Shown: positions 2,965 to 54,287 of the stretch, piece by piece
How positions within the stretch are numbered: the stretch's first letter is position 1
Layout of the letters: every line of letters starts with the position of its first letter
Source of the DNA: Escherichia phage A4
Length of the DNA stretch: 64,000 bases
Strand: one strand, 5' to 3'
Sequence record: ON286972
Notes under the pieces: generated by a model
Told to the model about the DNA's origin: nothing
Database searches by the model: none
The model's input: the letters and a program-made list of their open reading frames with translations, nothing else
Program-made: the position numbers and the translations under genes

Positions 2965-3486
2965 ATGTCGAAGAAGGATGCTTCGAAAAAACATTCGGTA
3001 CACTTCAGTACTGGAAAAGATAACTGGACTACTCCAAAGGAATTCTTTGAAGATTTGGATGAAGTCTGGGGATTCACACTTGATGCAGCATGTGTTAAAG
3101 AAACTGCATTATGTGACAAGTTTTTTACACCGGAAGATGATAGTCTTTCACAGGATTGGGGAAACAATATCGTCTTTCTTAACCCACCATACAGCGACCT
3201 GAAACCTTGGCTATCTAAGGCAGTTGATGCTTATAATAATGGTGCAACAGTACTGATACTTGTTCCATCACGTACTGATACAATTGCATTTCAGGAATAT
3301 GCATCTAAGCTTTGTGACTGTATTTGTTTTATTAAAGGACGTTTAAAATTTGGCATCCCTGAAGAACCAGATAAAAAGACTGATAGTGCTCCATTCCCTA
3401 GCTGTTTAATAGTACTGGATAAGTACTTAACACCAGCTAAAATCAACTATCTTAAATCTCTCGGTCAGGTGATGAAGAATATATGA
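2965..3486 (+). CDS. Phage Dam-like DNA N6-adenine methyltransferase
   Basis: WTTP..F..LDEVWGFTLDAAC, FLNPPYS, PSRTDT and RLKF motifs typical of the phage N6A-methyltransferase family. Confidence 0.85.
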   Translation: MSKKDASKKHSVHFSTGKDNWTTPKEFFEDLDEVWGFTLDAACVKETALCDKFFTPEDDSLSQDWGNNIVFLNPPYSDLKPWLSKAVDAYNNGATVLILVPSRTDTIAFQEYASKLCDCICFIKGRLKFGIPEEPDKKTDSAPFPSCLIVLDKYLTPAKINYLKSLGQVMKNI

Positions 3487-4022
3487 AAGACACTTGTATA
3501 GTAACGTATGGACGTATAAATCCAGTGCATTTGGGACATGGGTTAATTTTTGATAAAGCCGTATCGATGAAAGAACAATACAATGCTGACTTGAAAATAT
3601 ACCTTAGTACTACACAAGATTGTATTAAGAATCCATTACCACCTGAATTGAAAATGTATTACACTGAGGGTTTCTATCCAAGAATTCAACACAACATCAG
3701 TACTGAAGATAATCTTTTTGATATTATGCAGGAATTGAATGGTAAGTACAGTGATGTTCTTTTCATATGTGGTTCAGACAGGATAGAAAACTTTCAAAAT
3801 GTACTTGACAGATACAATGGAAACTTGTATAATTTTCGTAATATAAAAGCAATCCAAGCTGGTATAGACCGAACCGTTAGCAAGTACAGTTCAACTGAAA
3901 TGCGTTCTTTTGCTAAGCGTGATGATTTTGAAAGCTTCAGTTCTTATCTACCAGGTGATGATAATGACTTGAAAATAAAACTTTTTAAAGATGTAATAAA
4001 ATACATGAGGAAAGAACCATGA
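3483..4022 (+). CDS. Nucleotidyltransferase of the NadD/NMNAT/PPAT class (possible NMN adenylyltransferase)
   Basis: N-terminal YGRINPVHLGH (HxGH motif) and C-terminal SSTEMR (ISSTxxR-like) motif. Confidence 0.55.
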   Translation: MKDTCIVTYGRINPVHLGHGLIFDKAVSMKEQYNADLKIYLSTTQDCIKNPLPPELKMYYTEGFYPRIQHNISTEDNLFDIMQELNGKYSDVLFICGSDRIENFQNVLDRYNGNLYNFRNIKAIQAGIDRTVSKYSSTEMRSFAKRDDFESFSSYLPGDDNDLKIKLFKDVIKYMRKEP

Positions 4023-10445: not shown

Positions 10446-10709
10446 ATGAATATCCAAGATAGATTGCAATTGTTGCACACACTTGAAGAAGCTGCTTTTG
10501 AACTTGTTAATAAAATTGCACAAGAACTCCCAAAAGGAACCAACGTTCGTGTTCGTGAAATGGATTATTTAACGGGAGAAATTGAAGAAAAAGTTCTAAC
10601 AGTGATCAAAGTAACATACTATGAATCAGAGTTATCAATTCAATGTAAGTCAGATAATGGTTACGTTTCCTACTATGGCACAGATGTAGATATAGAGGTA
10701 ATTAGATGA
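10446..10709 (+). CDS. Hypothetical protein
   Basis: Track ORF 10401-10709 trimmed to ATG 10446 just after the upstream stop. Confidence 0.45.
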   Translation: MNIQDRLQLLHTLEEAAFELVNKIAQELPKGTNVRVREMDYLTGEIEEKVLTVIKVTYYESELSIQCKSDNGYVSYYGTDVDIEVIR

Positions 10710-11851
10710 GTAATTTACGAGAAATATACAATGATTTAATGGAACTATGTGAATCTAATGATGCATTTTTCTATATAGATCACACAAGCCCTGGTGGTGG
10801 TTTATACCGTGTATTCACCTATCGTCTGGCATCTTATACCGATTTCACAAATAAAAATGCACTAGAAACTCGTGGTTCTATGTGGGAAATCGATTCCAAC
10901 GGAATTATGATTCGTTGTGCAGCACGTACAATGAAAAAGTTCTTCAATGCATATGAAAACCCGTACACAATGTTCAGTACTGATACGACATGTGATGATA
11001 TTGCAGTTGTAATGCCTAAACTTGATGGTTCTATCATCAGCACATTCCGTGATAACGATGGTGAAATCCGTTGCAAATCACACACTTCGTTATCTTCTGA
11101 CCATGCTATTAACAGTACTCGACTTTTGAACGAGAACCAAAATCTCTATCAATACATTGATGAAGCAGACCGTTTGGGCTATACTGTGAATCTGGAATAC
11201 ACAAGCCCAGAGTATCGAATTGTGTTACCATATCAGGTGGAACAGTTATTTGTTCTTAACGTTCGTCATCGTATTAGTGGTGAGTTGTTATGCGGTAAAG
11301 CACTACGTGATAAGTTTCCATGCCTTTCACAGTACAGTACTAATATGACAGGTAATGACATTCATCATACATTCCCGATTATGCCTACATTTAAAGAGTC
11401 AATCGATAAAGTACGTTCTATGATTGACATTGAAGGTTTTGTGTGTATAATGAAAGATGGTACAATGTGCAAAATCAAAACTGACTGGTATTGCTCTTTG
11501 CATTTAACAAAAGATTCCATTCTTATTGATTCCCATTTATATGAAGCTGTACTGACTGGTGCAAGTGATGACTTAAAACAATTGTTCAGTACTGATACAT
11601 ATGCAATGGATAAGATATTAAGAATGGAACAATTGGTATTTTCGTGCTATAATGCTTTACAAGATGAGGTAGAAAGCTTCGTCCATGCATACAAGCACTT
11701 AGAGCGAAAGGAATTCGCTCAAAAGGTTCAGCAAGATTTACCTAATGTATTGAACCGACAAGGCTTGGCCTTTGCGTTGTACAATGGCAAAAGTGTCGAT
11801 TATAAAGAGACTTTACTAAAGTACTACAAAGATGTACTAAAGGATTTTTAG
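10706..11851 (+). CDS. rnlA: RNA ligase 1 (T4 Rnl1-like)
   Basis: Extended similarity to recalled T4 RnlA: FFY.D..S..G...R.F.Y..AS, RG.MFE, KFFN..ENP, GYV..MKDG...KIK.DWY.SLH.TK, GASDDLK. Confidence 0.9.
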   Translation: MSNLREIYNDLMELCESNDAFFYIDHTSPGGGLYRVFTYRLASYTDFTNKNALETRGSMWEIDSNGIMIRCAARTMKKFFNAYENPYTMFSTDTTCDDIAVVMPKLDGSIISTFRDNDGEIRCKSHTSLSSDHAINSTRLLNENQNLYQYIDEADRLGYTVNLEYTSPEYRIVLPYQVEQLFVLNVRHRISGELLCGKALRDKFPCLSQYSTNMTGNDIHHTFPIMPTFKESIDKVRSMIDIEGFVCIMKDGTMCKIKTDWYCSLHLTKDSILIDSHLYEAVLTGASDDLKQLFSTDTYAMDKILRMEQLVFSCYNALQDEVESFVHAYKHLERKEFAQKVQQDLPNVLNRQGLAFALYNGKSVDYKETLLKYYKDVLKDF

Positions 11852-12924: not shown

Positions 12925-13857
12925 ATGCCAACTATTACACTAACAGTTGGATTGCCAGGATGTGGTAAAACCACGTGGGCAGTGCAAGAAATTAAAAAAG
13001 CAAAGTCCAAGACTATCAACATCAATCGTGATGATATTCGAGAGTCTATGGCTGGGTCACATGATGCTTATAAATTCACTGATGCGAACGAGAAGTACGT
13101 AACTAATCAACAGTTCAGTGCAGCAAACGCAGCAGCAGCGAATGGATGGAACATTATTGTGTCCGATACGAACCTGAAACAAGGTTTTCGTGATGAATGG
13201 AAACGTTGGGCTAAAGATAATGGCTACGACTACAAAGAAAAGAACTTCTACGAAGATTTTGTACCGAATGAAGACCGTGGTGCAGATGTTCATGAATTCT
13301 TTAAGATTAAGGAATTCGTGAAGCTCTGTAAGAAACGCAACCTTCTTCGTGTGCGTTCAGTACAAGATGAAATCATTGACACTATGGCAGATACGTACTA
13401 TTATAGTAAGGCGATGCACATTGGTTACTATGGTAATGCACGTGAAGCTGCTATCATTGTTGATATCGACGGTACTCTTGCTCATAAGTGGGGACGTAAC
13501 CCGTTTGATGAAAGTACTGTCCTTCAGGATACACCAGATGAAGAAGTAATTCTGTCTGTCATTGCTGAGGCTGTTTTCCATAAGCGTAAGGTAATCGTCA
13601 TGAGTGGGCGTACTGAAGGGTGTCGTGCTGATACTGAACAGTGGCTTAAGAATTGGGGCATTCCCTACGATGTATTGTTAATGCGAGCTATCGATGATAA
13701 ACGTCCTGATGATGTTGTCAAATTCGAGTTGTATATGAATAACGTTGTTAATCATTACGATGTTAAGAAAGTATTTGATGACAGGGCCGCCGTTGTATTC
13801 ATGTGGCGTAAGCTACTAGGCTTGAAAGTATTTCAGGTGGAACCTGGACTATTTTGA
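12925..13857 (+). CDS. pseT: Polynucleotide 5'-kinase/3'-phosphatase (T4 Pnk-like)
   Basis: N-terminal P-loop GLPGCGKTTWA, NINRDD, and HAD-type phosphatase DIDGTLA with DDR..VV.MW; matches recalled T4 PseT. Confidence 0.9.
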   Translation: MPTITLTVGLPGCGKTTWAVQEIKKAKSKTININRDDIRESMAGSHDAYKFTDANEKYVTNQQFSAANAAAANGWNIIVSDTNLKQGFRDEWKRWAKDNGYDYKEKNFYEDFVPNEDRGADVHEFFKIKEFVKLCKKRNLLRVRSVQDEIIDTMADTYYYSKAMHIGYYGNAREAAIIVDIDGTLAHKWGRNPFDESTVLQDTPDEEVILSVIAEAVFHKRKVIVMSGRTEGCRADTEQWLKNWGIPYDVLLMRAIDDKRPDDVVKFELYMNNVVNHYDVKKVFDDRAAVVFMWRKLLGLKVFQVEPGLF

Positions 13858-19233: not shown

Positions 19234-19461
19234 ATGAAAGTAATTTATGTTCAGGTTGAAAAATATCAAACTGAAGATGGTCGCATTTTTGATTCAGCTA
19301 AACAAGCTGAGCATCATGAACGTATTATTTCTGGTGTTCGTCGCATTTGTCCTAAATGTAACGGAACACAACAAGTTCCCGATGAAGAATTTCGTCGCTA
19401 TTATGCATGTCCAGATTGTGATGGTAAAGGATATGTAGAAAAACAAGAGGTATGGAAGTGA
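19234..19461 (+). CDS. Small zinc-ribbon protein
   Basis: CPKCNG ... CPDCDGKG cysteine pairs. Confidence 0.5.
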   Translation: MKVIYVQVEKYQTEDGRIFDSAKQAEHHERIISGVRRICPKCNGTQQVPDEEFRRYYACPDCDGKGYVEKQEVWK

Positions 19462-19871
19462 AACTATATTGCTTAACAAACATGTACTGTCAGGGTGTTC
19501 AGGCTGGAGTTCAGGCATTTCATGCTGGTATTAAACTTGTCAAAGAGTATGAAGGTTCAGTATTCAGTACTCTAATCGATGAATGGTATAATGAGCACGA
19601 AACTATTGTAATCCTCAATGCTGGCAACCAAGATAAATTAACCACTCACTATGAGAATCTATCCAAACAGGGCAAGGTTCCATTTGCTAAATTCAATGAA
19701 CCAGGTTTGAACGATACCCTCACTAGTGTAGCAGTATTATGCACTGAAGAAATGATTGATGACATGGCACTGATGCGTACTAACGACCCAATGACTGATT
19801 TACAGCTATGTCACAAATACGGTCATATGTACGAAACACTAAAAGCTATGAGTACAATGAGGACTATTTGA
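19452..19871 (+). CDS. Hypothetical protein (139 aa)
   Basis: Track ORF. Confidence 0.5.
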   Translation: MEVKLYCLTNMYCQGVQAGVQAFHAGIKLVKEYEGSVFSTLIDEWYNEHETIVILNAGNQDKLTTHYENLSKQGKVPFAKFNEPGLNDTLTSVAVLCTEEMIDDMALMRTNDPMTDLQLCHKYGHMYETLKAMSTMRTI

Positions 19872-32829: not shown

Positions 32830-32889
32830 TACAAAAAAGGGGATTCTTATAATCCCCTATATTAATTTAATAAGGAGAGTATTATAACT

Positions 32890-33102
32890 ATGATAACTAT
32901 CAATTACTTTTCACTATGCTTTGTTTATTTTGTTGTTGTATTTCTAGCAGTTGTAGCGTACAATAATATTAAATGTATATATAAAATTATCAAAAACAAA
33001 GAGAAATTCAATGGATGGATGATATATCACATTGTCATCTCGGTTGTGTGTATCTTATTTGTATACGATTTGAGTTCATTAGGTACAGTAGGTAAGCTAT
33101 GA
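32890..33102 (+). CDS. Small membrane protein (70 aa)
   Basis: Two hydrophobic helices; AAGGAG RBS. Confidence 0.45.
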   Translation: MITINYFSLCFVYFVVVFLAVVAYNNIKCIYKIIKNKEKFNGWMIYHIVISVVCILFVYDLSSLGTVGKL

Positions 33103-33851
33103 TTTCTGACTCTTTTATAAAAAATAAAGGTAATAAACGTGTATTGGTTATTTCCGGTGCAGGTCTATCCGTTGAAAGTGGGATGGAACCGTTTCGCATG
33201 GACGATGGCCTATGGGATCAATTTCAAATAAATGATGTATGTAACATTGCACGTCTTAGTACTAAGTATCATTTAGTACACACTTTCTATAATACATTAC
33301 GTGTTAAAATGAAAGATTGTGTTCCTAATGATATGCATTATTATATCAAATCTCTAGAAGATACATACGGTGATAACTTTTTACATATGACTTCGAATAT
33401 GGATGATCTCTATACTCGTATTGGTGGTAATGAATTAAAGTTACATGGTAATTTAAAAGAAGTTATTGAGAATTTTACAATTGGTGGTGACGATTATAGT
33501 ATTGTGGATTGTGGTTATGAACCGTACATTCCGAAAGAAGGTGTCTTTGCGAAACCAAACGTAGTGTTCATTGGTGAATATTATCGTTATGTTGATGGTG
33601 AAAAACTCCCAATATACGATGAGCGTAATTTAATATTGCAATCCTTAACAGAAGATGATACAGTTGTAGTCATTGGTAGCAGTGACACAGTACTGAAATG
33701 GTCACATCTGGTTGCTTGTTTACCATGCTTTAGTGTTAATATCAACATCAGAAAAAATGATAACGATTTCATGTTCAATGAAAAAATTATAAAACCAGCT
33801 ACAAAAGCGATTCCAGTACTGGAAACTATCATTAAGGATAGAATGAAATGA
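33099..33851 (+). CDS. Sir2-family (sirtuin-like) protein
   Basis: VLVISGAGLSVESG..PFR..DGLW and HMTSNMDDL...HG motifs match the sirtuin NAD-binding core; no Cys4 zinc module seen. Confidence 0.7.
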   Translation: MISDSFIKNKGNKRVLVISGAGLSVESGMEPFRMDDGLWDQFQINDVCNIARLSTKYHLVHTFYNTLRVKMKDCVPNDMHYYIKSLEDTYGDNFLHMTSNMDDLYTRIGGNELKLHGNLKEVIENFTIGGDDYSIVDCGYEPYIPKEGVFAKPNVVFIGEYYRYVDGEKLPIYDERNLILQSLTEDDTVVVIGSSDTVLKWSHLVACLPCFSVNINIRKNDNDFMFNEKIIKPATKAIPVLETIIKDRMK

Positions 33852-34396
33852 TTCGAGAAGTACCTCTAGGTGAGTATGGTAAACGAGCAAACTTTGTATT
33901 CTGTTACTTCTTTGCTCGAAATTGTAACCCATATAAAGGTTATGAATTAAATGATATCCCTGTTGTGAATCTGGTATTACTCCAGCTTCGTTGGGATGGT
34001 TTACTGGGTGGTTGTGGTGGAACAGTCGAAGATACCGATGCCACCTTAGAAGATGCACTATTCCGTGAAATTCAGGAAGAGATGGATTATAATATTTTCA
34101 TCGAACAACTGAAACCATTGAAAACTTACGAACTATATCCTGGAGCACATACCCATAGCTATAGTTATGAAGTTACTTACGAAGAATTGAATGCGATTCG
34201 CGACGGATACAGTACTGCTAAACATGCAAGTGCAGAAGTGGCTGGTGTTAATTTATGTCACATTTCTCGTTATTCAAAGGGACAAAACCGAGAAGCAGGA
34301 TATAATAATCTTATGACACAAAACTTCATAGGAACTGCTAAAATGGAATTAGAACATCTTGTTCAATCCGAGAATTTACTGATTAGTTACTTATAA
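33848..34396 (+). CDS. Nudix-like hydrolase
   Basis: GGTVEDTDATLEDALFREIQEEM approximates the Nudix box GX5EX7REUXEE. Confidence 0.45.
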   Translation: MIREVPLGEYGKRANFVFCYFFARNCNPYKGYELNDIPVVNLVLLQLRWDGLLGGCGGTVEDTDATLEDALFREIQEEMDYNIFIEQLKPLKTYELYPGAHTHSYSYEVTYEELNAIRDGYSTAKHASAEVAGVNLCHISRYSKGQNREAGYNNLMTQNFIGTAKMELEHLVQSENLLISYL

Positions 34397-34407
34397 GGTG
34401 AATTATA

Positions 34408-34740
34408 ATGTCTTACTCAATGTTTCTGGATGATATTCGTGATCCTGAAAAGTATTATCCAAATCAAAACATGGTTTTATGTCGTGATTATGAAAGTGCA
34501 TGTGCTTATGTAAATGAACATGGTTTACCACAATTTATTAGCTTCGATCATGACTTAGGTGATGTTGGGGAGGATGAAAAAACAGGGTATTCATTTGCAA
34601 AATTTCTAATTGATTATATGGTCGAAAACAATATCAGTACTGAATTCGATTATATCATCCATAGCAGTAATCCTGTAGGGAAGGTCAACATTGACACATA
34701 CTTACAGAATGGTTTTAGATTTTTGAGAGGGGACAATTGA
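34408..34740 (+). CDS. Hypothetical protein (110 aa)
   Basis: Track ORF. Confidence 0.5.
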   Translation: MSYSMFLDDIRDPEKYYPNQNMVLCRDYESACAYVNEHGLPQFISFDHDLGDVGEDEKTGYSFAKFLIDYMVENNISTEFDYIIHSSNPVGKVNIDTYLQNGFRFLRGDN

Positions 34741-35036
34741 CAAAACATCATATACAAAGCTTTATAATCACAAGTGTTATATTTCTTGTTGTGTTTTGGT
34801 TCTTCTATCATCAAGATCAAACCAAGCACAGAAATATATACTACCGTACTGCTGTTGTTACTGACATAGGGCAGTGTGAAGAAAATACATGTTCATTTAC
34901 TTATAAGACTGAAGATGGGTCTATTAAGTATGGAGCATCAAGTAAACCAGTTTCAGTTGGGCAAATTGTTTACAATGAATGCTGGACAGAAAAGGCTCGC
35001 GGTCACCGCTGCTACGTTGACTATGAGCCACAATAA
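34737..35036 (+). CDS. Small membrane-anchored protein
   Basis: TTG start overlapping the upstream stop; N-terminal hydrophobic helix. Confidence 0.4.
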   Translation: MTKHHIQSFIITSVIFLVVFWFFYHQDQTKHRNIYYRTAVVTDIGQCEENTCSFTYKTEDGSIKYGASSKPVSVGQIVYNECWTEKARGHRCYVDYEPQ

Positions 35037-35100
35037 GAAGTGTCTGAGTCTATAATCTACCGTAGAGCACAAGGATGTGCTCATAACTCAAGGATGTTTT

Positions 35101-36540
35101 ATGAAAAAATACACAATTGACACAAACGTACTACTATCCGATCCAAATGCAACTGTAGCATTTGATGGGGCAGCAGTGATTCTACCATTCACTGTTCTTG
35201 AAGAACTTGATTCAATCAAGAGCCGTAATGTTGACGTATCACGTGATGCACGTTTCGCAATCCGTAACATCGATGCAATTCTGAAAGATGCTACTCATGA
35301 AGAAATCAGCAGTACTGGTGTTAATATTGCCAATATCCACAAAAATATGGATGCATCCAGTAAGCTATTCGTTATGACGAATGAAGAAGCTGAAGCACTT
35401 ATTCGTATGGGCGGCAGTGAAGATAAAGTAGAAACTCTACTTAAAAGTACTGTACCAGATGACAAAATCATTCTAGTGGCTTTGGCATCACAATCAGTAC
35501 TGGTAACTCGCGACATTAACATGCGTATCAAAGCAATGAGCTACGGTGTTGAGGTACAAGATTACCGTCATGACGTTGCAATCGAAGATAGTGAGTTGAT
35601 TCATATTGGTCAGCACCACCTTGATATTGATTTCTGGAAAACATTCAGTGAAGTTAATAATGCTGAAATTAAATCCCAACAAGAAGGTCGCCGTCTATAT
35701 CACTATATTCCAACCGCATTGATTCAAGATGTTCTACCAGATAATCTATGTATTGGTGATTATCTATATGATAATGCTGATGTACTATTCGTATACGAAG
35801 GTCAATCTGCTATCGAAGAAGAAGACGGTTCACTAACACCTGAAGATATTTTGGTATTCCAGGATATTGGTCAAAGTATCGCTCTTCGTGCTAAAGTTTG
35901 GGATATTAAAGCAAAGAATATTCAACAGGCACTAGCAATTAACAGTATTCTTGACCCTGATGTACATTTGACAGTACTACTCGGTTCAGCAGGTACTGGT
36001 AAAACATTGATTACTGTTGCTACTTCACTCGAATTAGTGCTGGAAAAACGTAAATACGATCGTATAATCTTCTCCAAAACACAAGATTCTCAATTTGAAG
36101 AAATTGGTTTCTTGCCTGGTTCTGAAGCTGAGAAGGTCATCCCATTCTGTGGGGCTGCAATTGATGCACTAGAGTATCTACACAAAGACGATGCTAACCC
36201 ACAAGGTAGTATTGAAGAGATTCTCAAACGTAACGTAATGCAGTTTAAAGCATTGAACTTTATTCGTGGTCGTTCTTTTACTAATACAATTCTAATTGTT
36301 GATGAATTCCAGAACATCACCCCTGCACAGGCAAAAACTATTCTTACCCGTGCAGGTCAAAACTGTAAGGTTATCATTATGGGTAACTTAGCACAGATTG
36401 ATAGTAAGTTTATTAGTCCAGTTAATAGTGGTTTGACATATGTAACTGAAAAATTCAAAGATTGGGAAGGGTGTCGTATCATTGAATTGGAAGGTGTTGT
36501 ACGTTCTGCACTTGCAGAGTTTGCAGAAGAAAATATGTAA
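35101..36540 (+). CDS. phoH: PhoH-like ATPase with N-terminal PIN domain
   Basis: Trimmed to ATG 35101; PIN-like N-terminus (IDTNVLL), Walker A GSAGTGKT, Walker B-like ILIVDEFQN. Confidence 0.8.
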   Translation: MKKYTIDTNVLLSDPNATVAFDGAAVILPFTVLEELDSIKSRNVDVSRDARFAIRNIDAILKDATHEEISSTGVNIANIHKNMDASSKLFVMTNEEAEALIRMGGSEDKVETLLKSTVPDDKIILVALASQSVLVTRDINMRIKAMSYGVEVQDYRHDVAIEDSELIHIGQHHLDIDFWKTFSEVNNAEIKSQQEGRRLYHYIPTALIQDVLPDNLCIGDYLYDNADVLFVYEGQSAIEEEDGSLTPEDILVFQDIGQSIALRAKVWDIKAKNIQQALAINSILDPDVHLTVLLGSAGTGKTLITVATSLELVLEKRKYDRIIFSKTQDSQFEEIGFLPGSEAEKVIPFCGAAIDALEYLHKDDANPQGSIEEILKRNVMQFKALNFIRGRSFTNTILIVDEFQNITPAQAKTILTRAGQNCKVIIMGNLAQIDSKFISPVNSGLTYVTEKFKDWEGCRIIELEGVVRSALAEFAEENM

Positions 36541-36547
36541 TCTATTA

Positions 36548-36576
36548 TTGACATTAAATGTGTTCATTGCTATAAT
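36548..36576 (+). promoter_or_regulatory. Consensus sigma70 promoter
   Basis: TTGACA, 17 nt spacer, TATAAT, about 30 nt upstream of 36609. Confidence 0.65.
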
Positions 36577-36608: not shown

Positions 36609-36797
36609 ATGGCTAAACAACCTAAGAAAAAAGAACCAGAAGTTAAAGTTAAAAAAGTGAAAGTTATTCAATCCAAAGAACAACGCACTTATGAGCTACG
36701 TAAAGCTGAAACTTTAAGTGGGCTTCAGTCTCTACGTAAGCAAGGTGTACTAACACGTGCACAATATCGTGAACTGGTTGCACAAAAAGGTTTTTGA
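36609..36797 (+). CDS. Small lysine-rich protein (62 aa)
   Basis: Directly downstream of a consensus promoter; GAAGGAAG RBS. Confidence 0.55.
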   Translation: MAKQPKKKEPEVKVKKVKVIQSKEQRTYELRKAETLSGLQSLRKQGVLTRAQYRELVAQKGF

Positions 36798-36941: not shown

Positions 36942-37688
36942 ATGGATCTTGAAAAACAAACCGAAGCAATCATCACCGAACTAATCAAAATTGGTTATAA
37001 ATGCCCATTTATCTATGGTTCGTGGAATACTTTTTGTTTGTATAAGTATGATGACAAATTACCAAATGATATTGATGTTATTAATATAGTACCAGAAGAG
37101 TTTGAAGAAGGTGAGTTCTCTGTAAAATTAGATTGTATTGATATACCTGTCAATATTGAATGTATGACTCTCAATCATCTTCGTGTCGAATTAATGCGTG
37201 GTGATGTTAAATACTATACCATCGGTTTTGGTACTATTGTACCGAAATGTGCAAATCATCTTTTGATGTACCTTGGTCATATCGGTTCGGTTATGATGAC
37301 ACGCCGTAACAGTGAGATTCGTAAAATTTGCAGTACTGCATCAGATAAAGCCTTTAATAAAGGAAAAAAGAAGTTGACAGTACTGGAAGATTACGATAAG
37401 ATGTTAGGACTAAAGAACATCTGGCATAGCATTCACTTCATCTATATCATTACGCATTATTACAATCTGTACAGATCTAACACTGAACATGAAATGAATA
37501 TTGCGTCGATGAAACAAGAGTTTGATGTGCTTGAAATGCTGAACATTCGCGACAACATCTATAAGATATATGATGAAACATATGGTGATTATCATGTAAA
37601 AGCACAAGCTGTTATTGATTACGCGAAACCGATTCGTAACAAACTGATGACTGAATTTAGAAAATTATACCCCAAGGAGGATGTATGA
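36942..37688 (+). CDS. Hypothetical protein (248 aa), possible minimal nucleotidyltransferase fold
   Basis: GS followed ~17 aa later by DID; weak evidence only. Confidence 0.45.
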   Translation: MDLEKQTEAIITELIKIGYKCPFIYGSWNTFCLYKYDDKLPNDIDVINIVPEEFEEGEFSVKLDCIDIPVNIECMTLNHLRVELMRGDVKYYTIGFGTIVPKCANHLLMYLGHIGSVMMTRRNSEIRKICSTASDKAFNKGKKKLTVLEDYDKMLGLKNIWHSIHFIYIITHYYNLYRSNTEHEMNIASMKQEFDVLEMLNIRDNIYKIYDETYGDYHVKAQAVIDYAKPIRNKLMTEFRKLYPKEDV

Positions 37689-37751: not shown

Positions 37752-38309
37752 ATGTTCTTTGACCAAACATTTACGTTGTACCATGATTCTGGAAAAGTAG
37801 AGATTGTTGATAATCTTCTACAATATATTGCTGACCACGAAGGGGTTGAACGATTTCACAGCAAAATGAAATTTGATTTATCCGAGTTCAACAAGAAGAA
37901 TCGTGAATCATTCTGGAAAAATCGTTTCTATTATGAAATGTATCCTGAAAAGTTTGTCAGTTATTATCTCTGTACTGAAAAAGGTTTACTTGTATCGCCT
38001 GATTTACTTATGGGTGAATACATGGTTCTCTATAATGAGTACTGGGAACATAAACGTAAGGCCCGTGACACCGAATGGCGACACAAACGCTCTTACATGT
38101 ACAAGCATAACCATTTTCGCTACAAACGTCCTAAGACCCAACAAGAGCGTCGTATGGCGTGTGCAGTACTGAAGGATGATGGTGAACCTGATATTCGTGG
38201 AAAACGCAAGATGCGTTCACTACCGACATATTGGGACGATTTTAGAACAAGACACAGTACTGGCTGGAAATACAGTACTAAACGTAAACATCAATACAAA
38301 GGGAGCTAA
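37752..38309 (+). CDS. Hypothetical basic protein (185 aa)
   Basis: GGAG RBS; K/R/H-rich C-terminal half. Confidence 0.5.
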   Translation: MFFDQTFTLYHDSGKVEIVDNLLQYIADHEGVERFHSKMKFDLSEFNKKNRESFWKNRFYYEMYPEKFVSYYLCTEKGLLVSPDLLMGEYMVLYNEYWEHKRKARDTEWRHKRSYMYKHNHFRYKRPKTQQERRMACAVLKDDGEPDIRGKRKMRSLPTYWDDFRTRHSTGWKYSTKRKHQYKGS

Positions 38310-43019: not shown

Positions 43020-44825
43020 ATGCAAATAGATAAATTATATACGGACGTAACTAACTTCCTCAACCAGAGTAACGCTGATTTAACAAACGAAAATGCAAAT
43101 AAAGACGCTAAATGTGTTAATACACATCGTGATTTATTGGCAGGTATTCTTTCTAAACATTATTCCCAAGATGTGATTCCTGATGAATTGATGAAGTGGC
43201 ATAATGAAGGTTACGGTCATATTCATGATTTAGACTATTACATTAGCCCATTAACAAACTGTTGTTTAGTTAATTATCCTGATATGCTTGCTAATGGCTT
43301 CATGATTGGTTGTGCCAAGATTGAAGAACCAAAAAGCTTTGGGGTAGCTTGTACAGTACTAACACAGATTGTTCAGGCTGTTGCAAGCTCACAGTACGGT
43401 GGTCAGTCGTTGGCTCACATTGACACTGGCCTTGCACCATATGTACAAAAGTCATGGAATAAACTTCTAGAAAAACAAAAGAAATACAATCTTAGTACTG
43501 AATTCATTGAAGATGAGTTGCGTAAGGAAGTTTATGACGGTTGTCAAACAATTCTATATCAAACAAACTCAATGATCAGTACTAATGGTCAGGCTGCGTT
43601 CATTTCTTTAAGTTTAGGATTAGGTACATCTAAATTTGAAAAACTAATCACTGAACAATATTTGAAAGTACATGAAAATGGACTAGGTAAAGATAAGATT
43701 ACTCCAGTATTCCCTAAAGTAATATTCTTTCTTCAGGATGGAATTAATATGAACAGTACTGATTGTAATTATGACTTAAAACAATTAGCTATGCGTTGTG
43801 CAGCTAAACGCATCTATCCTGATTTTGTATCAGTACCTTTGAATCAAAAAGTTACTGGAAGCACAACTATTCCTGTTACTCCGATGGGATGCAGAAGTTT
43901 CTTAGGGAAATGGGAAAATACACAAGGAGAAGAAAAATACAATGGTAGATTCAACCTTGGCGTTGTGTCTATCAACTTACCACTAATTGCTCTTGAGAGT
44001 GAGTCTGATGGTGATTTCTTTGATAAGATTGACGAGCACATGAATATTGCTTACAGAGCACAGATGAACCGTGTAGAACGTTTAAAAGGTACAAAGGCAA
44101 AACAAAACCCTATACTTTTCGCTGAAGGTGCGATTGCACGTCTTGATCCTGAAGACACTATTGACCATTTATTTTATAATGGTTATGCTAGTATCAGTAT
44201 TGGTTATGTTGGGTTATCTGAGTGTTCAGAGATCCTCACTGGTTCAATTAGTAAAGAGTTCTGTATGAGTATTTTGAACTACATGAAAGCAAAATGTGAT
44301 GAATTCAAAAAAGAGAGTAACATTGCATTTAGTCTTTACGGTACACCAGCAGAATCACTATGTTATAAATTTGCACGTTGTATTGAGGCAAAACATCCTT
44401 CAGTACTGAAACGTGACTTTATCACTAACTCATTCCATCAACCAGTATGGGTTGAAAGTACACCTTTTGCTAAATGGGATTATGAGGAAAACTTTGCTTA
44501 TCTAAGCAATGGTGGTAATATTAGCTATGTCGAAACACCAAATCTAGCTAATAATATACAAGCACTAGAAACATTAATAAATTTTGCTTATACTAAAATT
44601 CCATATTTTGGTATTAATCAGAAGGTCGATAAGTGTTTTGAATGTGATTTTGAGGGTGAATTTAGTGTAGATAAAAATGGTTTCCATTGTCCGGTATGTG
44701 ACAACCGCAATGAACGCACAATGTCGGTTATTCGCAGAGTATCAGGATATCTTAGTGCACCAAATAGTCGCCCGTTCAATAAAGGTAAACAAGCTGAAGT
44801 TATTCAACGTATACAACACATGTAA
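43020..44825 (+). CDS. nrdD: Anaerobic ribonucleoside-triphosphate reductase
   Basis: 601 aa; C-terminal Cys cluster CPVCDNRNERT and glycyl-radical motif RRVSGYL; uninterrupted. Confidence 0.9.
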   Translation: MQIDKLYTDVTNFLNQSNADLTNENANKDAKCVNTHRDLLAGILSKHYSQDVIPDELMKWHNEGYGHIHDLDYYISPLTNCCLVNYPDMLANGFMIGCAKIEEPKSFGVACTVLTQIVQAVASSQYGGQSLAHIDTGLAPYVQKSWNKLLEKQKKYNLSTEFIEDELRKEVYDGCQTILYQTNSMISTNGQAAFISLSLGLGTSKFEKLITEQYLKVHENGLGKDKITPVFPKVIFFLQDGINMNSTDCNYDLKQLAMRCAAKRIYPDFVSVPLNQKVTGSTTIPVTPMGCRSFLGKWENTQGEEKYNGRFNLGVVSINLPLIALESESDGDFFDKIDEHMNIAYRAQMNRVERLKGTKAKQNPILFAEGAIARLDPEDTIDHLFYNGYASISIGYVGLSECSEILTGSISKEFCMSILNYMKAKCDEFKKESNIAFSLYGTPAESLCYKFARCIEAKHPSVLKRDFITNSFHQPVWVESTPFAKWDYEENFAYLSNGGNISYVETPNLANNIQALETLINFAYTKIPYFGINQKVDKCFECDFEGEFSVDKNGFHCPVCDNRNERTMSVIRRVSGYLSAPNSRPFNKGKQAEVIQRIQHM

Positions 44826-44834
44826 GGAGATATT

Positions 44835-45197
44835 ATGTCAATTCAAGGTAAACAAGTCATGTCTGGTGAGCACCGTGGAACTATCATGCTAATAGAAAAT
44901 GATATTGCACGTATTATTGTATCAAAGACCTTTTCTGAAGATGATGAAGTACTTTTGAGTACTTTTGATGGTGAGGTACTGCGTGATGTGGAAATTCAAC
45001 ACGCACCGAATATTGAAGGTGGGCAGCACTTGAATGTAAATGTTCTATCTAAAGAACAACTCATTGATGCACAAAATAATCCAGAAAAGTATCCGCAACT
45101 TACAATTCGTGTTAGTGGTTATGCAGTTCGTTTCAATTCACTAACAAAAGAACAACAAGATGATGTAATCAATCGTACTTTTACTAAAGGTCTATGA
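44835..45197 (+). CDS. grcA: Autonomous glycyl-radical cofactor (GrcA/YfiD-like)
   Basis: [11 protein letters not shown] and [35 protein letters not shown] are near-identical to recalled E. coli GrcA/PFL C-terminus. Confidence 0.85.
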
Positions 45198-45529
45198 TGG
45201 ACTTAAAACCAATTGTAGTTAACAAATATAAAGAACCATATGATGTGTATATTGGTCGTGGGTCTAAATGGGGAAATCCATTTACCCACATTAATGACAA
45301 ACAAACAAAGGCAGAGTTTATAGTTCCGACACGAGAAGAGTCGATTGAGAAGTTCAGAGAGTATCTTATCCAAAGAATTGAAAATGGTGAGGTTACTATC
45401 GAAGAACTACTTGAATTGGCTGGGAAGCGTCTTGGGTGCTTTTGTAAGCCAAAATCATGTCATGGTGATGTTCTTGTAGAAATAGTGAGTGCAATATTAG
45501 ATGAATTACCAGACGATAATCAAGGATGA
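45194..45529 (+). CDS. DUF4326-like protein
   Basis: [15 protein letters not shown] and [13 protein letters not shown] motifs recalled as typical of that family. Confidence 0.55.
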
Positions 45530-45980
45530 TTTAGTTAATGGGGAGGGAGTTAGATGCTCCCTTTTTGTTTCAGGGTGTAGCCACGGATGTGAAGAATGCT
45601 TCAACGAAAAAGCATGGGATTATCGCAGTGGTTCAGAATTCAGTACTGAAACAGTTGAAATCATCCTGAATGAACTTAACAAGCCATATGTACAAGGATT
45701 ATCCCTTTTAGGTGGTGATCCATTGATGCCAAAGAATATCAGTACTGTTATTGAGTTATGTAAAGTAGTAAAAGAAAAATATCCAAATAAAGATATTTGG
45801 TGCTGGAGTGGTTATACTTTAGAGGAAATAATAAATAATCATGCCTCCGCAATACTAGAGTACATTGATGTATTAGTTGATGGTAAATTTATTCTTGAAG
45901 AAAAGAATTTAGAATTACCATTTAGAGGCTCTAATAATCAACGTATTCTTCGTAAAGGAGTAGATTATGCGTTATCTTGA
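45501..45980 (+). CDS. nrdG: Anaerobic ribonucleotide reductase activating protein (radical SAM)
   Basis: [24 protein letters not shown] (CxxxCxxC) and GGDPL; parallels recalled T4 NrdG N-terminus. Confidence 0.85.
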   Translation: MNYQTIIKDDLVNGEGVRCSLFVSGCSHGCEECFNEKAWDYRSGSEFSTETVEIILNELNKPYVQGLSLLGGDPLMPKNISTVIELCKVVKEKYPNKDIWCWSGYTLEEIINNHASAILEYIDVLVDGKFILEEKNLELPFRGSNNQRILRKGVDYALS

Positions 45981-53885: not shown

Positions 53886-54287
53886 ATGGATCTTGATGAT
53901 GTGTATAGCACCATAAGACAGATGGATTCGTATAAAAAAGTATATAGTGGTTACAAGAGTGATAAACAATTTTATGGAATCGGGGAGTATGATGTAATAT
54001 CATTCGAATACGATGATACTGGTGAAAGTTCCATTAATATTGTTTGCCCTCGTGACCGTGAAAATAACTTCATGTACGTTGAAATCAATAATGATGGTTT
54101 ACACTTTACTAAAATATTAAATGGTGGCAAACAATCTATTTCTCTGGATTTATCCGAAGAAGAAAAGTTCTTTCAAGAAGATACTATAATCAATCTTGGT
54201 TTTAGTTTATCAGAATACAAAGTTCTTCATAAAGATTTCATGAAGTACTATAATGGGTTTCTTAAGGAGCTAACATTACATCTATGA
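53886..54287 (+). CDS. Hypothetical protein (133 aa)
   Basis: Track ORF. Confidence 0.5.
   Translation: MDLDDVYSTIRQMDSYKKVYSGYKSDKQFYGIGEYDVISFEYDDTGESSINIVCPRDRENNFMYVEINNDGLHFTKILNGGKQSISLDLSEEEKFFQEDTIINLGFSLSEYKVLHKDFMKYYNGFLKELTLHL

What the first reader, a model, noticed from the sequence alone, without database searches (positions are those of the whole stretch)
33099..36540. Adjacent Sir2, Nudix and PhoH/PIN genes suggesting NAD or nucleotide manipulation
A sirtuin-like protein overlaps by ATGA a Nudix-like hydrolase, and a PIN-PhoH ATPase follows 0.7 kb downstream; a NadD/NMNAT-class adenylyltransferase is encoded at 3483-4022. Sir2 and Nudix together could consume and process NAD/ADP-ribose, or the set could act to restore NAD levels depleted by host defence NADases.
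Basis: inference. Interest (0 to 1): 0.5.

Follow-up and report, generated by a model that had tools for sequence, protein, structure and literature searches.

The report
Jumbo-phage sirtuin–Nudix–cREC NAD module

Summary
The genes exist as described. Sir2 (33099-33851) overlaps a NUDT16-like Nudix (33848-34396) by ATGA, and PIN-PhoH follows (probable start 35101, end 36540).

The window is a RaK2-like jumbo phage, 76-80% nucleotide identity to Asteriusvirus. All 15 related jumbo-phage loci that extend far enough downstream keep Sir2→Nudix/cREC→TM→PIN-PhoH. In 9 of them Nudix and cREC are one fused protein. 15/16 have NAD+ salvage genes (Nampt + NMNAT-Nudix, i.e. NARP2) just upstream, and 14/16 have an Acb1-like 2H gene. 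The window lacks all three.

The Sir2 keeps every NAD-pocket and catalytic residue, folds like E. coli CobB, and has no zinc cysteines. This neighbourhood was described in silico by Iyer et al. 2022 as a predicted NAD+-dependent RNA-repair system; I found no experiments.

My best reading is that the sirtuin transfers ADP-ribose from NAD+, most likely onto an RNA phosphate end, and Nudix+cREC dismantle the by-product. "Restoring NAD" is not supported, because nothing in the set makes NAD. The 3483-4022 ORF is a HIGH-motif nucleotidyltransferase; calling it an NMNAT is unproven. Verdict: new member of a known (predicted) kind, moderate-low interest.

The parts
32838..32858 (+). G+C-rich hairpin (weak terminator-like) after the HslV-like peptidase gene. 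It marks the upstream edge of the gene block.
   Evidence: 8-bp stem, 4 GC pairs; sequence
32890..33102 (+). 70-aa hydrophobic (about 2 TM) ORF whose stop overlaps the Sir2 ATG (ATGA). It is lineage-specific and occupies the position where relatives carry the 2H/Acb1-like gene.
   Evidence: Homologue found only in L009. No PHROG or PADLOC hit.
33099..33851 (+). Sirtuin of the phage-specific, zinc-less, CobB-derived clade (250 aa). Motifs: GAGLS 20-24, FR 32-33, invariant C48, FYNTLR 63-68, TSNMDD 98-103, catalytic H116, KPNVVFIGE 152-160.
   Evidence: Pfam SIR2 2.1e-19. Closest PDB sequence is E. coli CobB, 1.6e-21. Invariant residues. AF2 pLDDT 91.8. Foldseek top hit CobB, TM 0.77-0.85. No CxxC..CxxC motif. 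No PADLOC defence-Sir2 hit.
33848..34396 (+). NUDT16-like Nudix hydrolase (182 aa), ATGA-coupled to Sir2. Nudix core R73-E74-I-Q-E77-E78 is intact.
   Evidence: PF22327 3.8e-19. PDB human NUDT16, 3e-13. Conserved motif across 15 loci. Fused to cREC in GAP32-like phages.
34408..34740 (+). cREC (cyclic-phosphate-processing receiver-like) domain protein, 110 aa. Invariant residues D8 D9 R11, F46-D47-H48-D49-L50, S86, N88.
34737..35036 (+). 99-aa protein with an N-terminal TM helix and a C-terminal domain with 4 invariant cysteines. It is always found between cREC and PhoH in this phage family. Role unknown; it may not belong to the NAD module.
   Evidence: PHROG 14661 'membrane protein' 1.2e-34. 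Alignment of 15 loci. Synteny.
35101..36540 (+). PIN + PhoH (PhoH2-type architecture, 479 aa from ATG 35101; the mechanical ORF starts at GTG 35077). PIN acidic residues: D7, E34/E35/D37, D120/D121, D138. Walker A GSAGTGKT 295-302. Walker B VDEF 400-403.
   Evidence: Pfam PIN_4 1.2e-21 and PhoH 1e-43. NCBIfam PhoH2 model at 162 bits, below its 680 cut-off. PDB 3b85 PhoH-like, 2.9e-21, with the P-loop aligned. Start inferred from tblastn. Motif positions.
36548..36576 (+). Perfect sigma-70 consensus promoter (TTGACA-17-TATAAT with TG) immediately after the PhoH stop. It marks the downstream edge of the block.
   Evidence: 12/12 matches; sequence
10706..11851 (+). Context, not adjacent: T4 Rnl1-type RNA ligase, 21 kb upstream. 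A candidate sealing enzyme if the module heals RNA ends.
   Evidence: Pfam RNA_lig_T4_1 1.8e-15 and T4_Rnl1_C 7.2e-15
12925..13857 (+). Context, not adjacent: T4 Pnkp-type polynucleotide kinase/phosphatase.
   Evidence: Pfam HAD_PNKP 4.9e-42 and AAA_33 7e-14
3483..4022 (+). Context only: HIGH-motif (HxGH / SSTEMR) nucleotidyltransferase, overlapping the end of a Dam methylase gene. NMNAT identity is unproven.

Best explanation
Sir2, the NUDT16-like Nudix and cREC form one NAD+-consuming module.

- Sir2. It is a CobB-derived sirtuin that has lost its zinc ribbon but kept the full catalytic set. It cleaves NAD+ and transfers ADP-ribose onto an oxygen nucleophile of a substrate. The most likely acceptor is a phosphate at an RNA end, such as a 2'-phosphate left after a 2',3'-cyclic end is opened. 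That would release nicotinamide and ADP-ribose-1'',2''-cyclic phosphate and leave a clean RNA end, as Tpt1/KptA does.
- cREC. This Rec-fold enzyme with an Asp/His pocket opens the cyclic phosphate, either on the RNA or on the ADPr by-product.
- Nudix. It splits the ADP-ribose pyrophosphate into AMP plus a ribose phosphate.
- Sealing. The phage's T4-type Pnkp and Rnl1, 21 kb upstream, could seal the healed ends.
- Nicotinamide recycling. In most relatives nicotinamide is recycled by adjacent Nampt + NMNAT-Nudix genes. This window's lineage has lost them, along with the 2H gene, so the module here must draw on host NAD+.
- PIN-PhoH. This RNA helicase/RNase-type protein is co-transcribed by position, but its functional tie is unproven.

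Shown: gene content, motifs, folds, synteny and the fusion. Inferred: the substrate, the chemistry and the biological role.
For: 1. Active enzymes. The Sir2 clade keeps G20/G22/G28, F32-R33, N100, D102 and H116 invariant or nearly invariant, and its model is confident. The Nudix REIQEE core is kept. cREC keeps invariant D8, D9, D47, H48, D49, S86 and N88 on a Rec fold.

2. Physical coupling. There are ATGA overlaps TM70/Sir2 and Sir2/Nudix, no terminator-like site inside 32890-36540, a hairpin before the block and a consensus promoter after it.

3. Fusion. Nudix and cREC are one polypeptide in GAP32 and 8 other loci.

4. Recurrent linkage in unrelated phage families. In rV5-like phages the order is Rnl1-type RNA ligase-cREC-Sir2 (7 contiguous loci). 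In T5-like phages Sir2 is followed by HAD_SAK_2, an 'RNA repair' HAD (about 25 loci).

5. Nampt lies within 8 kb of Sir2 in 27/80 loci, and NARP2 directly upstream in 15/16 jumbo loci. This fits recycling of the sirtuin's nicotinamide product.

6. The zinc-less 'VCN' clade is distinct from ordinary CobB-like sirtuins. Only 2/30 of the top-ranked representatives have the Zn motif, against about 55% further down.

7. No KptA/Tpt1 in the window. Elsewhere in viruses KptA is itself found fused to Nudix.

8. The same proposal was reached independently from comparative genomics by Iyer et al. 2022 (PMC9503650 section 3.7.3).
Against: - No experiment on any member was found.
- Sequence and fold are closest to true protein deacylases (CobB, Sir2Af1, SIRT5). 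The hydrophobic residues at the acyl-lysine tunnel positions (V156, I158) and the FR loop are retained (tunnel assignment is from my knowledge of Sir2Tm/CobB structures).
- No sirtuin is known to act on RNA.
- In this window the 2H enzyme that would generate a 2'-phosphate is absent. The resident T4-type Pnkp can already remove 2',3'-cyclic and 3'-phosphates without NAD+ (established T4 biochemistry).
- The 2H in relatives is Acb1-like (PF23474 5.7e-16). Acb1 is an anti-CBASS nuclease family rather than a proven RNA-end enzyme, which weakens one pillar of the published RNA-repair argument.
- cREC and HAD_SAK functions are themselves only predictions.
- Three sampled cREC loci from other large phages showed no consistent partner.
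- No Sir2 fusion to Nudix or cREC appeared among the ten longest of the 150 best representatives.
Confidence: 0.4

Rival explanations
1. Ordinary sirtuin chemistry. The phage Sir2 is a CobB-like NAD+-dependent protein lysine deacylase, or a protein mono-ADP-ribosyltransferase, that retunes host or phage proteins. The Nudix (with cREC) removes the O-acyl-ADP-ribose/ADPr product.
For: - The closest sequence and structural relatives are E. coli CobB and SIRT5, with about 40% identity to CobB over the first 112 residues (my count on the alignment).
- The class-III FY..RR signature is retained in T5- and rV5-type members and in most of the top 150 relatives.
- Catalytic His/Asn/Asp, the FR loop and the VxF/I-GE motif are conserved.
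- Nudix hydrolases are known to hydrolyse O-acetyl-ADP-ribose (established knowledge: Ysa1/NUDT5). NUDT16 removes protein ADP-ribose (established knowledge).
Against: - The whole clade lacks the four zinc cysteines present in characterised deacylase sirtuins.
- The jumbo-phage subclade has replaced the succinyl-binding Arg position (FYNTLR).
- None of the recurrent neighbours is a protein-modification enzyme. They are RNA-end or nucleotide enzymes instead.
- The cREC fusion to Nudix has no obvious role in this scheme.
Confidence: 0.25
2. Counter-defence island. Nudix + cREC (with the Acb1-like 2H and NARP2 in relatives) destroy host immune nucleotides (ADPr-derived or cyclic signals) or strip host-made ADP-ribose adducts from phage RNA, DNA or proteins. 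Sir2 modifies a host factor.
For: - In 14/16 related loci the gene directly upstream of Sir2 belongs to the Acb1 anti-CBASS family.
- It is preceded by Nampt + NMNAT-Nudix, the NARP2 pair. KVP40's NARP2 was shown experimentally to overcome NAD-depleting defences (bioRxiv 10.1101/2024.02.11.579819).
- NUDT16-family enzymes cleave ADP-ribose adducts and nucleotide caps (established knowledge).
- cREC was originally proposed as a cADPr / cyclic-nucleotide processor (PMC7824862).
Against: - This scheme gives no role for an NAD+-consuming sirtuin.
- The window itself lacks Acb1 and NARP2 yet retains Sir2-Nudix-cREC.
- No match to any known anti-defence protein family for the three core genes.
- Linkage with an RNA ligase in rV5-like phages is not explained.
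Confidence: 0.2
3. One reading: the set rebuilds NAD+ depleted by host NADases.
For: A HIGH-motif nucleotidyltransferase that could be an NMNAT lies at 3483-4022. Relatives do carry NAD+ salvage next to Sir2.
Against: - Neither Sir2, Nudix, cREC nor PhoH synthesises NAD+.
- No Nampt/Namat/Adps-like gene was found in 64 kb: tblastn found none and there was no NAPRTase or Pribosyltran Pfam hit among the ORFs scanned.
- The putative NMNAT is 29 kb away and fails every curated threshold.
Confidence: 0.03
4. No functional unit. The genes are neighbours only because the RaK2-like genomes are collinear. PhoH and the TM protein in particular are unrelated to Sir2.
For: - The whole 60-kb region is collinear between the window, Asteriusvirus and GAP32, so synteny within this family is weak evidence.
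- PhoH is not near Sir2 in rV5-like loci, and is on the opposite strand 3.6-4.5 kb away in T5-like loci.
- Kae01-like phages have an unrelated 122-aa ORF inserted between Sir2 and Nudix.
Against: - The Nudix-cREC fusion.
- cREC-Sir2 adjacency arises in two unrelated phage families. I estimate the joint chance at about 1e-4 from gene counts.
- ATGA coupling.
Confidence: 0.1

Closest known systems
Type-1 'sirtuin-centred NAD+-utilising RNA-repair' neighbourhood of jumbo phages (Iyer, Burroughs, Anantharaman & Aravind, Viruses 2022, PMC9503650 section 3.7.3; prototype Serratia phage BF, AQW88637.1). A computational prediction.
   Same: [quoted passage not shown] Same phage group (RaK2/GAP32/BF-like). 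Nudix and cREC are separate or fused.
   Different: The window lacks the 2H gene listed for the type and lacks the adjacent NARP2 genes that 15/16 relatives have. A 70-aa membrane ORF sits in the 2H position.
Tpt1/KptA RNA 2'-phosphotransferase pathway (ART fold) with a 2H cyclic phosphodiesterase and Macro/Nudix clean-up
   Same: Proposed logic only: NAD+ is used to remove an RNA phosphate as ADP-ribose cyclic phosphate, and the by-product is processed by a cyclic-phosphate esterase and a Nudix. KptA-Nudix fusions exist in viruses.
   Different: No homology: this is a Sir2 Rossmann fold, not an ART fold. The activity is untested, and no sirtuin is known to act on RNA.
E. coli CobB / class III sirtuins (SIRT5)
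   Same: Best sequence and structure match. NAD pocket, catalytic His, FY..R motif.
   Different: No Zn-binding cysteines. Invariant Cys48 in a 'VCN' motif. Diverged C-terminal half. Phage-specific gene contexts.
Human NUDT16 / Xenopus X29 (U8 snoRNA decapping, (d)IDP hydrolysis, ADP-ribose removal)
   Same: Pfam Nudt16-like family, the same atypical Nudix box (GG.VE..D..LE..L.RE..EE), and alignment across 150 residues.
   Different: Phage protein, about 25-30% identity by my estimate from the alignment. Fused or adjacent to cREC. Substrate unknown.
PhoH2 (PIN-PhoH RNA helicase/RNase of mycobacteria)
   Same: Same two-domain architecture, with PIN acidic residues and Walker A/B intact.
   Different: Scores 162 bits against the 680-bit equivalog cut-off. 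Phage-encoded. Reported in the RaK2 virion proteome (PMC5259590).
NARP2 (phage Nampt + NMNAT-Nudix; Osterman et al., bioRxiv 10.1101/2024.02.11.579819)
   Same: Sits immediately upstream of the same Sir2 block in GAP32, RaK2, Kae01 and others.
   Different: Absent from this window.

Membership tests
Sirtuin (Pfam SIR2), class III/CobB-like | Profile match above the curated threshold | tested here: met
   PF02146 at 70.6 bits against a cut-off of 24
Sirtuin (Pfam SIR2), class III/CobB-like | NAD+-binding GAGxS loop, FR loop, Asn/Asp of the TQNxD motif, and catalytic His | tested here: met
   G20-A-G-L-S24, F32-R33, N100, D102 and H116 are invariant or nearly invariant in 21-30 clade members
Sirtuin (Pfam SIR2), class III/CobB-like | Four-cysteine zinc ribbon in the small domain | tested here: not met
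   No CxxC..CxxC motif. Only C48 is conserved. 2/30 of the nearest representatives have the motif, against about 55% of more distant ones.
Sirtuin (Pfam SIR2), class III/CobB-like | Sirtuin fold | tested here: met
   AF2 pLDDT 91.8. Foldseek CobB TM 0.77-0.85, E 4e-18.
Sirtuin (Pfam SIR2), class III/CobB-like | NAD+-dependent lysine deacylase activity | not testable with these tools
   Needs an enzyme assay
Defence-type Sir2 NADases (ThsA, DSR1/2, Sir2-HerA, Sir2-pAgo) | Match to defence Sir2 profiles and presence of partner domains or genes (SLOG, HerA, pAgo, sensor domains) | tested here: not met
   No PADLOC hit at E<=0.01. The protein is a stand-alone 250-aa Sir2. The top 50 fold matches listed are all deacylase-type sirtuins.
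NUDT16-like Nudix | Profile match plus the catalytic Nudix-box glutamates | tested here: met
   PF22327 at 69.6 bits against a cut-off of 27. R73-E74-x-x-E77-E78 are conserved in 15 loci. PDB NUDT16 3e-13.
cREC (PF20274) | Profile match | tested here: met
   80.3 bits against a cut-off of 27
cREC (PF20274) | Receiver (CheY-like) fold with a conserved acidic pocket | tested here: met
cREC (PF20274) | Never paired with a histidine kinase; linked to NAD/ADPr or RNA-end enzymes | tested here: met
   Adjacent to Nudix and Sir2 here, fused to Nudix in 9 loci, and next to an RNA ligase in rV5-like loci
cREC (PF20274) | Cyclic-phosphate hydrolysis | not testable with these tools
   A prediction only, in PMC7824862 and PMC9503650
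Iyer et al. 2022 type-1 sirtuin RNA-repair neighbourhood | Phage-clade sirtuin + Nudix + cREC + PIN-domain gene in one neighbourhood | tested here: met
Iyer et al. 2022 type-1 sirtuin RNA-repair neighbourhood | Linked 2H phosphoesterase | tested here: not met
   No tblastn hit of GAP32_118 or ENKO_139 in the window. The position is taken by a 70-aa ORF.
PhoH2 (PIN-PhoH) | N-terminal PIN plus C-terminal PhoH P-loop ATPase with intact motifs | tested here: met
PhoH2 (PIN-PhoH) | Equivalog-level similarity to characterised PhoH2 | tested here: not met
   NF053827 at 162 bits against a cut-off of 680
NARP2 NAD+ reconstitution pathway | Nampt (nicotinamide phosphoribosyltransferase) | tested here: not met
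   No tblastn hit in the window. No NAPRTase-type Pfam family among the ORFs scanned.
NARP2 NAD+ reconstitution pathway | NMNAT | tested here: inconclusive
   ORF 3483-4022 has the HxGH and SSTEMR motifs. hhalign P=70% against phage NMNAT-Nudix. TIGR00482 at 20 bits against a cut-off of 112. No Pfam hit.
Tpt1/KptA 2'-phosphotransferase | ART-fold PTS_2-RNA domain | tested here: not met
   No such domain in any scanned ORF of the window. Sir2 is a functional analogue at most.

The most novel reading that the evidence does not exclude
The zinc-less, CobB-derived phage sirtuin is the first sirtuin that works on nucleic acid. It would be an NAD+-dependent RNA phosphate-end ADP-ribosyltransferase/2'-phosphotransferase, a non-homologous analogue of Tpt1. 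cREC would be a new Asp-based cyclic-phosphodiesterase and the NUDT16-like Nudix would dismantle the ADPr by-product. In this lineage that three-enzyme core would suffice without any 2H enzyme or phage NAD+ salvage.
Probability: 0.3. Interest if true: 0.75.

Novelty: new member of a known kind. Interest (0 to 1): 0.3.

Why it matters
Phage sirtuins are widespread: tblastn hits in 974 of 50,697 phage records. I found no experimental study of any of them. If the predicted activity is right, it would add a second, unrelated enzyme fold to NAD+-dependent RNA repair. It would also give cREC its first biochemical function and explain why NAD+ salvage genes sit next to Sir2 in many large phages. This window offers a minimal version (Sir2 + Nudix + cREC, without 2H or NARP2) that would be a clean starting point for biochemistry. 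As a genomic observation it is not new: the neighbourhood was published in 2022, and related phage records already annotate Sir2, Nudix and PhoH.

Tried and rejected
- Defence-type NADase Sir2. Rejected: no PADLOC hit, stand-alone domain, CobB-like fold.
- NAD+ restoration by this set. Rejected: no Nampt/Namat in the window.
- Looking for Sir2 fusions to Nudix, cREC or Macro. I took the 150 best of 1.84 billion representatives and ran Pfam on the ten longest. Only Sir2 duplications or unannotated extensions turned up, with no informative fusion.
- Sampling cREC neighbourhoods in three other large phage contigs. No consistent partner; one RNA_ligase gene lay 3 kb away. Uninformative.
- Looking for tRNAs or known RNA families near the block. 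None in 64 kb.
- Assigning ORF 36942-37688 (conserved downstream) to the RlaP/NTase families by BLASTP and PDB search. No support.
- Pinning ORF 3483-4022 to NMNAT. Only superfamily-level support.
- Literature searches for experimental work on phage Sir2 or cREC. Nothing beyond the two Aravind-group papers. One search failed on a term that was too short.
- Whether Asteriusvirus-like genomes carry Nampt elsewhere was not resolved. Only the window and ±8 kb of L009 were examined.

Full report
**What the sequence shows**

All genes in 32890-36540 lie on the + strand and are tightly packed.
- A 70-aa hydrophobic ORF (32890-33102) ends in ATGA with the start of a 250-aa Sir2 (33099-33851).
- Sir2 ends in ATGA with the start of a 182-aa Nudix (33848-34396).
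- Eleven bases later comes a 110-aa ORF (34408-34740).
- A 99-aa ORF (34737-35036) overlaps its stop.
- After about 64 bp comes a PIN-PhoH protein. Relatives' proteins align from the ATG at 35101, so the GTG at 35077 picked by the ORF finder is probably not the start.

Pfam assigns these families:

| ORF | Pfam family | E-value |
|---|---|---|
| 33099-33851 | SIR2 | 2.1e-19 |
| 33848-34396 | Nudt16-like | 3.8e-19 |
| 34408-34740 | cREC_REC | 1.8e-22 |
| 35077-36540 | PIN_4 | 1.2e-21 |
| 35077-36540 | PhoH | 1e-43 |

PHROGs agree.

A hairpin follows the preceding HslV-like peptidase gene (32838-32858). A perfect sigma-70 consensus promoter sits just after the PhoH stop (36548-36576). No terminator-like site lies in between. 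The six genes therefore look like one transcription block.

One of them, cREC, is the most informative neighbour.

**Where the window comes from**

- The region is 76-80% identical in DNA to Asteriusvirus coliphages of the PBECO4/121Q type.
- It is collinear over tens of kilobases with Cronobacter phage GAP32 and Klebsiella phage fENko-Kae01.
- Proteins 99% identical occur on contigs of about 358 kb filed under E. coli.
- It is therefore a RaK2-like jumbo phage.
- The window also encodes a T4 Rnl1-type RNA ligase (10706-11851), a T4 Pnkp-type kinase/phosphatase (12925-13857), two calcineurin-like phosphoesterases, a DNA ligase and an RlaP-like nucleotidyltransferase.
- It has no tRNA and no Rfam family hit.

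**The proteins**

*Sir2*
- Its closest solved relatives by sequence are E. coli CobB structures (E 1.6e-21). The first 112 residues align well and the C-terminal half is diverged.
- Across 21-30 clade members the invariant or nearly invariant residues include the GAGxS loop, F32-R33, N100, D102-D103, H116-G117, K152-P153 and E160. This is the complete NAD+ pocket and catalytic set. A clade-specific Cys48, Y64 and R68 are also invariant.
- There is no four-cysteine zinc ribbon anywhere in the clade.
- The AlphaFold model is confident (pLDDT 91.8). It superposes best on CobB (TM 0.77-0.85), then on archaeal Sir2Af1 and SIRT5. The 50 best matches listed are all deacylase-type sirtuins.
- No PADLOC defence model matches it.
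- I searched 1.84 billion representatives with the clade profile. The 30 nearest almost all lack a CxxC..CxxC motif (2/30). About 55% of ranks 31-150 have it, and most share the class III FYNxRR signature.
- The protein is thus a distinct zinc-less offshoot of class III sirtuins.

*Nudix*
- It aligns over 150 residues with human NUDT16 (3e-13).
- It keeps the REIQEE catalytic core in all 15 related sequences.

*cREC*
- It has no solved relative by sequence.
- Sixty-one homologues keep D8, D9, R11, F46-D47-H48-D49-L50, S86 and N88 invariant. That pattern looks like an enzyme pocket rather than a signalling domain.

*PIN-PhoH*
- It has the PIN acidic residues and Walker A/B motifs.
- It scores far below the PhoH2 equivalog threshold.

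*99-aa protein*
- It has an N-terminal transmembrane helix and four invariant cysteines.

**Comparative census**

I fetched 80 viral loci encoding relatives of the Sir2. I labelled their ORFs with profiles built from the window and from annotated relatives.

*RaK2-like jumbo loci (16)*
- All 15 that extend far enough show Sir2 → Nudix/cREC → TM protein → PIN-PhoH. One contig is truncated.
- Nudix and cREC are one fused polypeptide in 9 and separate in 6.
- 15 of 16 carry an NMNAT-Nudix gene and a Nampt gene within 8 kb upstream.
- 14 of 16 carry a 148-aa 2H gene directly upstream of Sir2.
- Only the 121Q-like locus L009 and this window lack all three. tblastn finds none of them in the 64-kb window.
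- Pfam places that 2H protein in the Acb1 anti-CBASS family (5.7e-16), above its match to the generic 2'-5' RNA ligase family.

*Other phage families*
- In rV5-like phages the order is Rnl1-type RNA ligase-cREC-Sir2 (7 contiguous loci, and 4 more with the ligase within 3.2 kb). Nampt lies 7-8 kb away.
- In T5-like phages Sir2 is followed by a HAD_SAK_2 "RNA repair" phosphatase. A PIN-less PhoH lies 3.6-4.5 kb away on the other strand.
- About 25 loci show none of my probe families.

*What this supports*
- Well supported: Nudix-cREC (fusion), Sir2-cREC (adjacency in two unrelated families) and Sir2-Nampt (27/80 loci).
- Sir2-PhoH is supported only inside one collinear family, so it stays uncertain.

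**What is known**

- The jumbo-phage survey that defined cREC (PMC7824862) and the virus-wide NAD+/ADPr survey (PMC9503650) come from the same group.
- It also describes the rV5 and T5/SP15 configurations. It proposes that this sirtuin clade acts like KptA/Tpt1, removing RNA 2'-phosphates with NAD+, while the neighbours open cyclic phosphates or process ADPr>p.
- I found no experimental work on a phage Sir2 or on cREC.
- Nampt + NMNAT is the NARP2 pathway, shown with the KVP40 genes to overcome NAD+-depleting defences.
- NARP3 (PnuC + NadR) is unrelated to this locus.

**Interpretation**

*Part I hold with fair confidence (about 0.75).* Sir2, Nudix and cREC are one NAD+-consuming, ADP-ribose-processing module.
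- Sir2 produces nicotinamide plus an ADPr-linked product.
- Nudix and cREC take that product apart.
- In relatives NARP2 turns the nicotinamide back into NAD+.
- This lineage retains the module after losing NARP2. That argues for catalytic use on specific substrates rather than bulk NAD+ hydrolysis.

*Which acceptor the sirtuin uses is inferred.* The recurrent partners (RNA ligase, HAD_SAK, cREC, a NUDT16-type enzyme, PIN-PhoH) point to RNA ends, so I favour the published RNA-repair model at 0.4.

Evidence pulling the other way:
- The fold and sequence are those of a lysine deacylase.
- No sirtuin is known to act on RNA.
- The window lacks a 2H enzyme and already has a T4-type Pnkp.
- The relatives' 2H is Acb1-like. 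Together with NARP2 this makes the upstream region of relatives look like an anti-defence island.

I therefore keep two substantial rivals: a protein deacylase with O-acyl-ADPr disposal (0.25), and counter-defence by degrading ADPr-derived signals or adducts (0.2).

The ORF at 3483-4022 is a HIGH-motif nucleotidyltransferase. Its NMNAT identity is possible but below every curated threshold.

**Verdict**

- The system is a reduced member of a kind that has been described only by prediction.
- It is not surprising to a specialist, but it is a compact, testable candidate for the first biochemical function of a phage sirtuin and of cREC.

Noticed in passing
window 45194-45529 (+): A 111-aa DUF4326 protein (PF14216 5.4e-25; motif [10 protein letters not shown]...CFCKP..CH) sits between the anaerobic ribonucleotide reductase genes nrdD (43020-44825) and nrdG (45501-45980). 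The jumbo-phage survey (PMC7824862) lists DUF4326 as an enigmatic domain linked to NAD+/ADPr systems.
   Followed up: partly
L004:4300-4746 (GAP32_118) and L005:4531-4977 (ENKO_139): The 2H gene directly upstream of Sir2 in 14/16 related jumbo-phage loci matches Pfam Acb1 (anti-CBASS), 5.7e-16. That is better than its match to the generic 2'-5' RNA ligase family (25.8 bits, below the cut-off). With the adjacent NARP2 genes, this makes the upstream region of relatives look like an anti-defence island. The window lacks all of it.
   Followed up: partly
window 36548-36576 (+): A perfect sigma-70 consensus promoter with an extended -10 (TTGACA-17-TGCTATAAT) sits right after the PhoH stop, ahead of a 62-aa lysine-rich ORF (36609-36797).
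   Followed up: no
window ~35058-35100 (+): The short spacer before the PhoH ATG has a 6-bp hairpin (GAGCAC-AAGGAT-GTGCTC) and a duplicated CAAGGATGT. One copy carries the Shine-Dalgarno sequence, so this may be a translational control element.
   Followed up: no
window 36942-37688 (+) and 37752-38309 (+): Two ORFs downstream of PhoH are conserved in position in 13-15 of 16 related loci. Neither has a Pfam, PDB or PADLOC match; the second hits only a PHROG of unknown function. The first has a GS...DxD-like motif, and a relative's annotation cites HHpred similarity to AadA nucleotidyltransferase.
   Followed up: partly
window 54284-55525 (+): A 413-aa protein matches RlaP, the 'RNA repair pathway DNA polymerase beta family' (PF10127 2e-17). 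It is another predicted RNA-repair component in the same window.
   Followed up: no
The pairing is conserved in Asteriusvirus annotation ('DNA methyltransferase' then 'cytidyltransferase').
   Followed up: partly
L005:5744-6112 (ENKO_141); also L011-L014: Kae01-like phages have an extra 122-aa ORF with no family match inserted between Sir2 and Nudix. The ATGA coupling seen in the window is therefore not universal.
   Followed up: no
window 34737-35036 (+): A membrane-anchored 99-aa protein with four invariant cysteines (GQC...C...CW...C) is always wedged between cREC and PhoH in this phage family. Its function is unknown.
   Followed up: partly
window 19452-19871 (+): A weak Pth2 (peptidyl-tRNA hydrolase) match (Pfam 1.5e-4, 22.4 bits against a cut-off of 23; NCBIfam 4.9e-4). 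It lies next to the NinI-like phosphatase and DNA ligase genes.
   Followed up: no
whole window: Sir2, cREC and the 3483-4022 ORF each have 98-99% identical counterparts in public assemblies. For the last two, these lie on NCBI contigs of about 358 kb labelled Escherichia coli. This phage therefore seems to be present in public data as an unrecognised contig rather than as a named phage record; the best named phage is only 76-80% identical in DNA.
   Followed up: no
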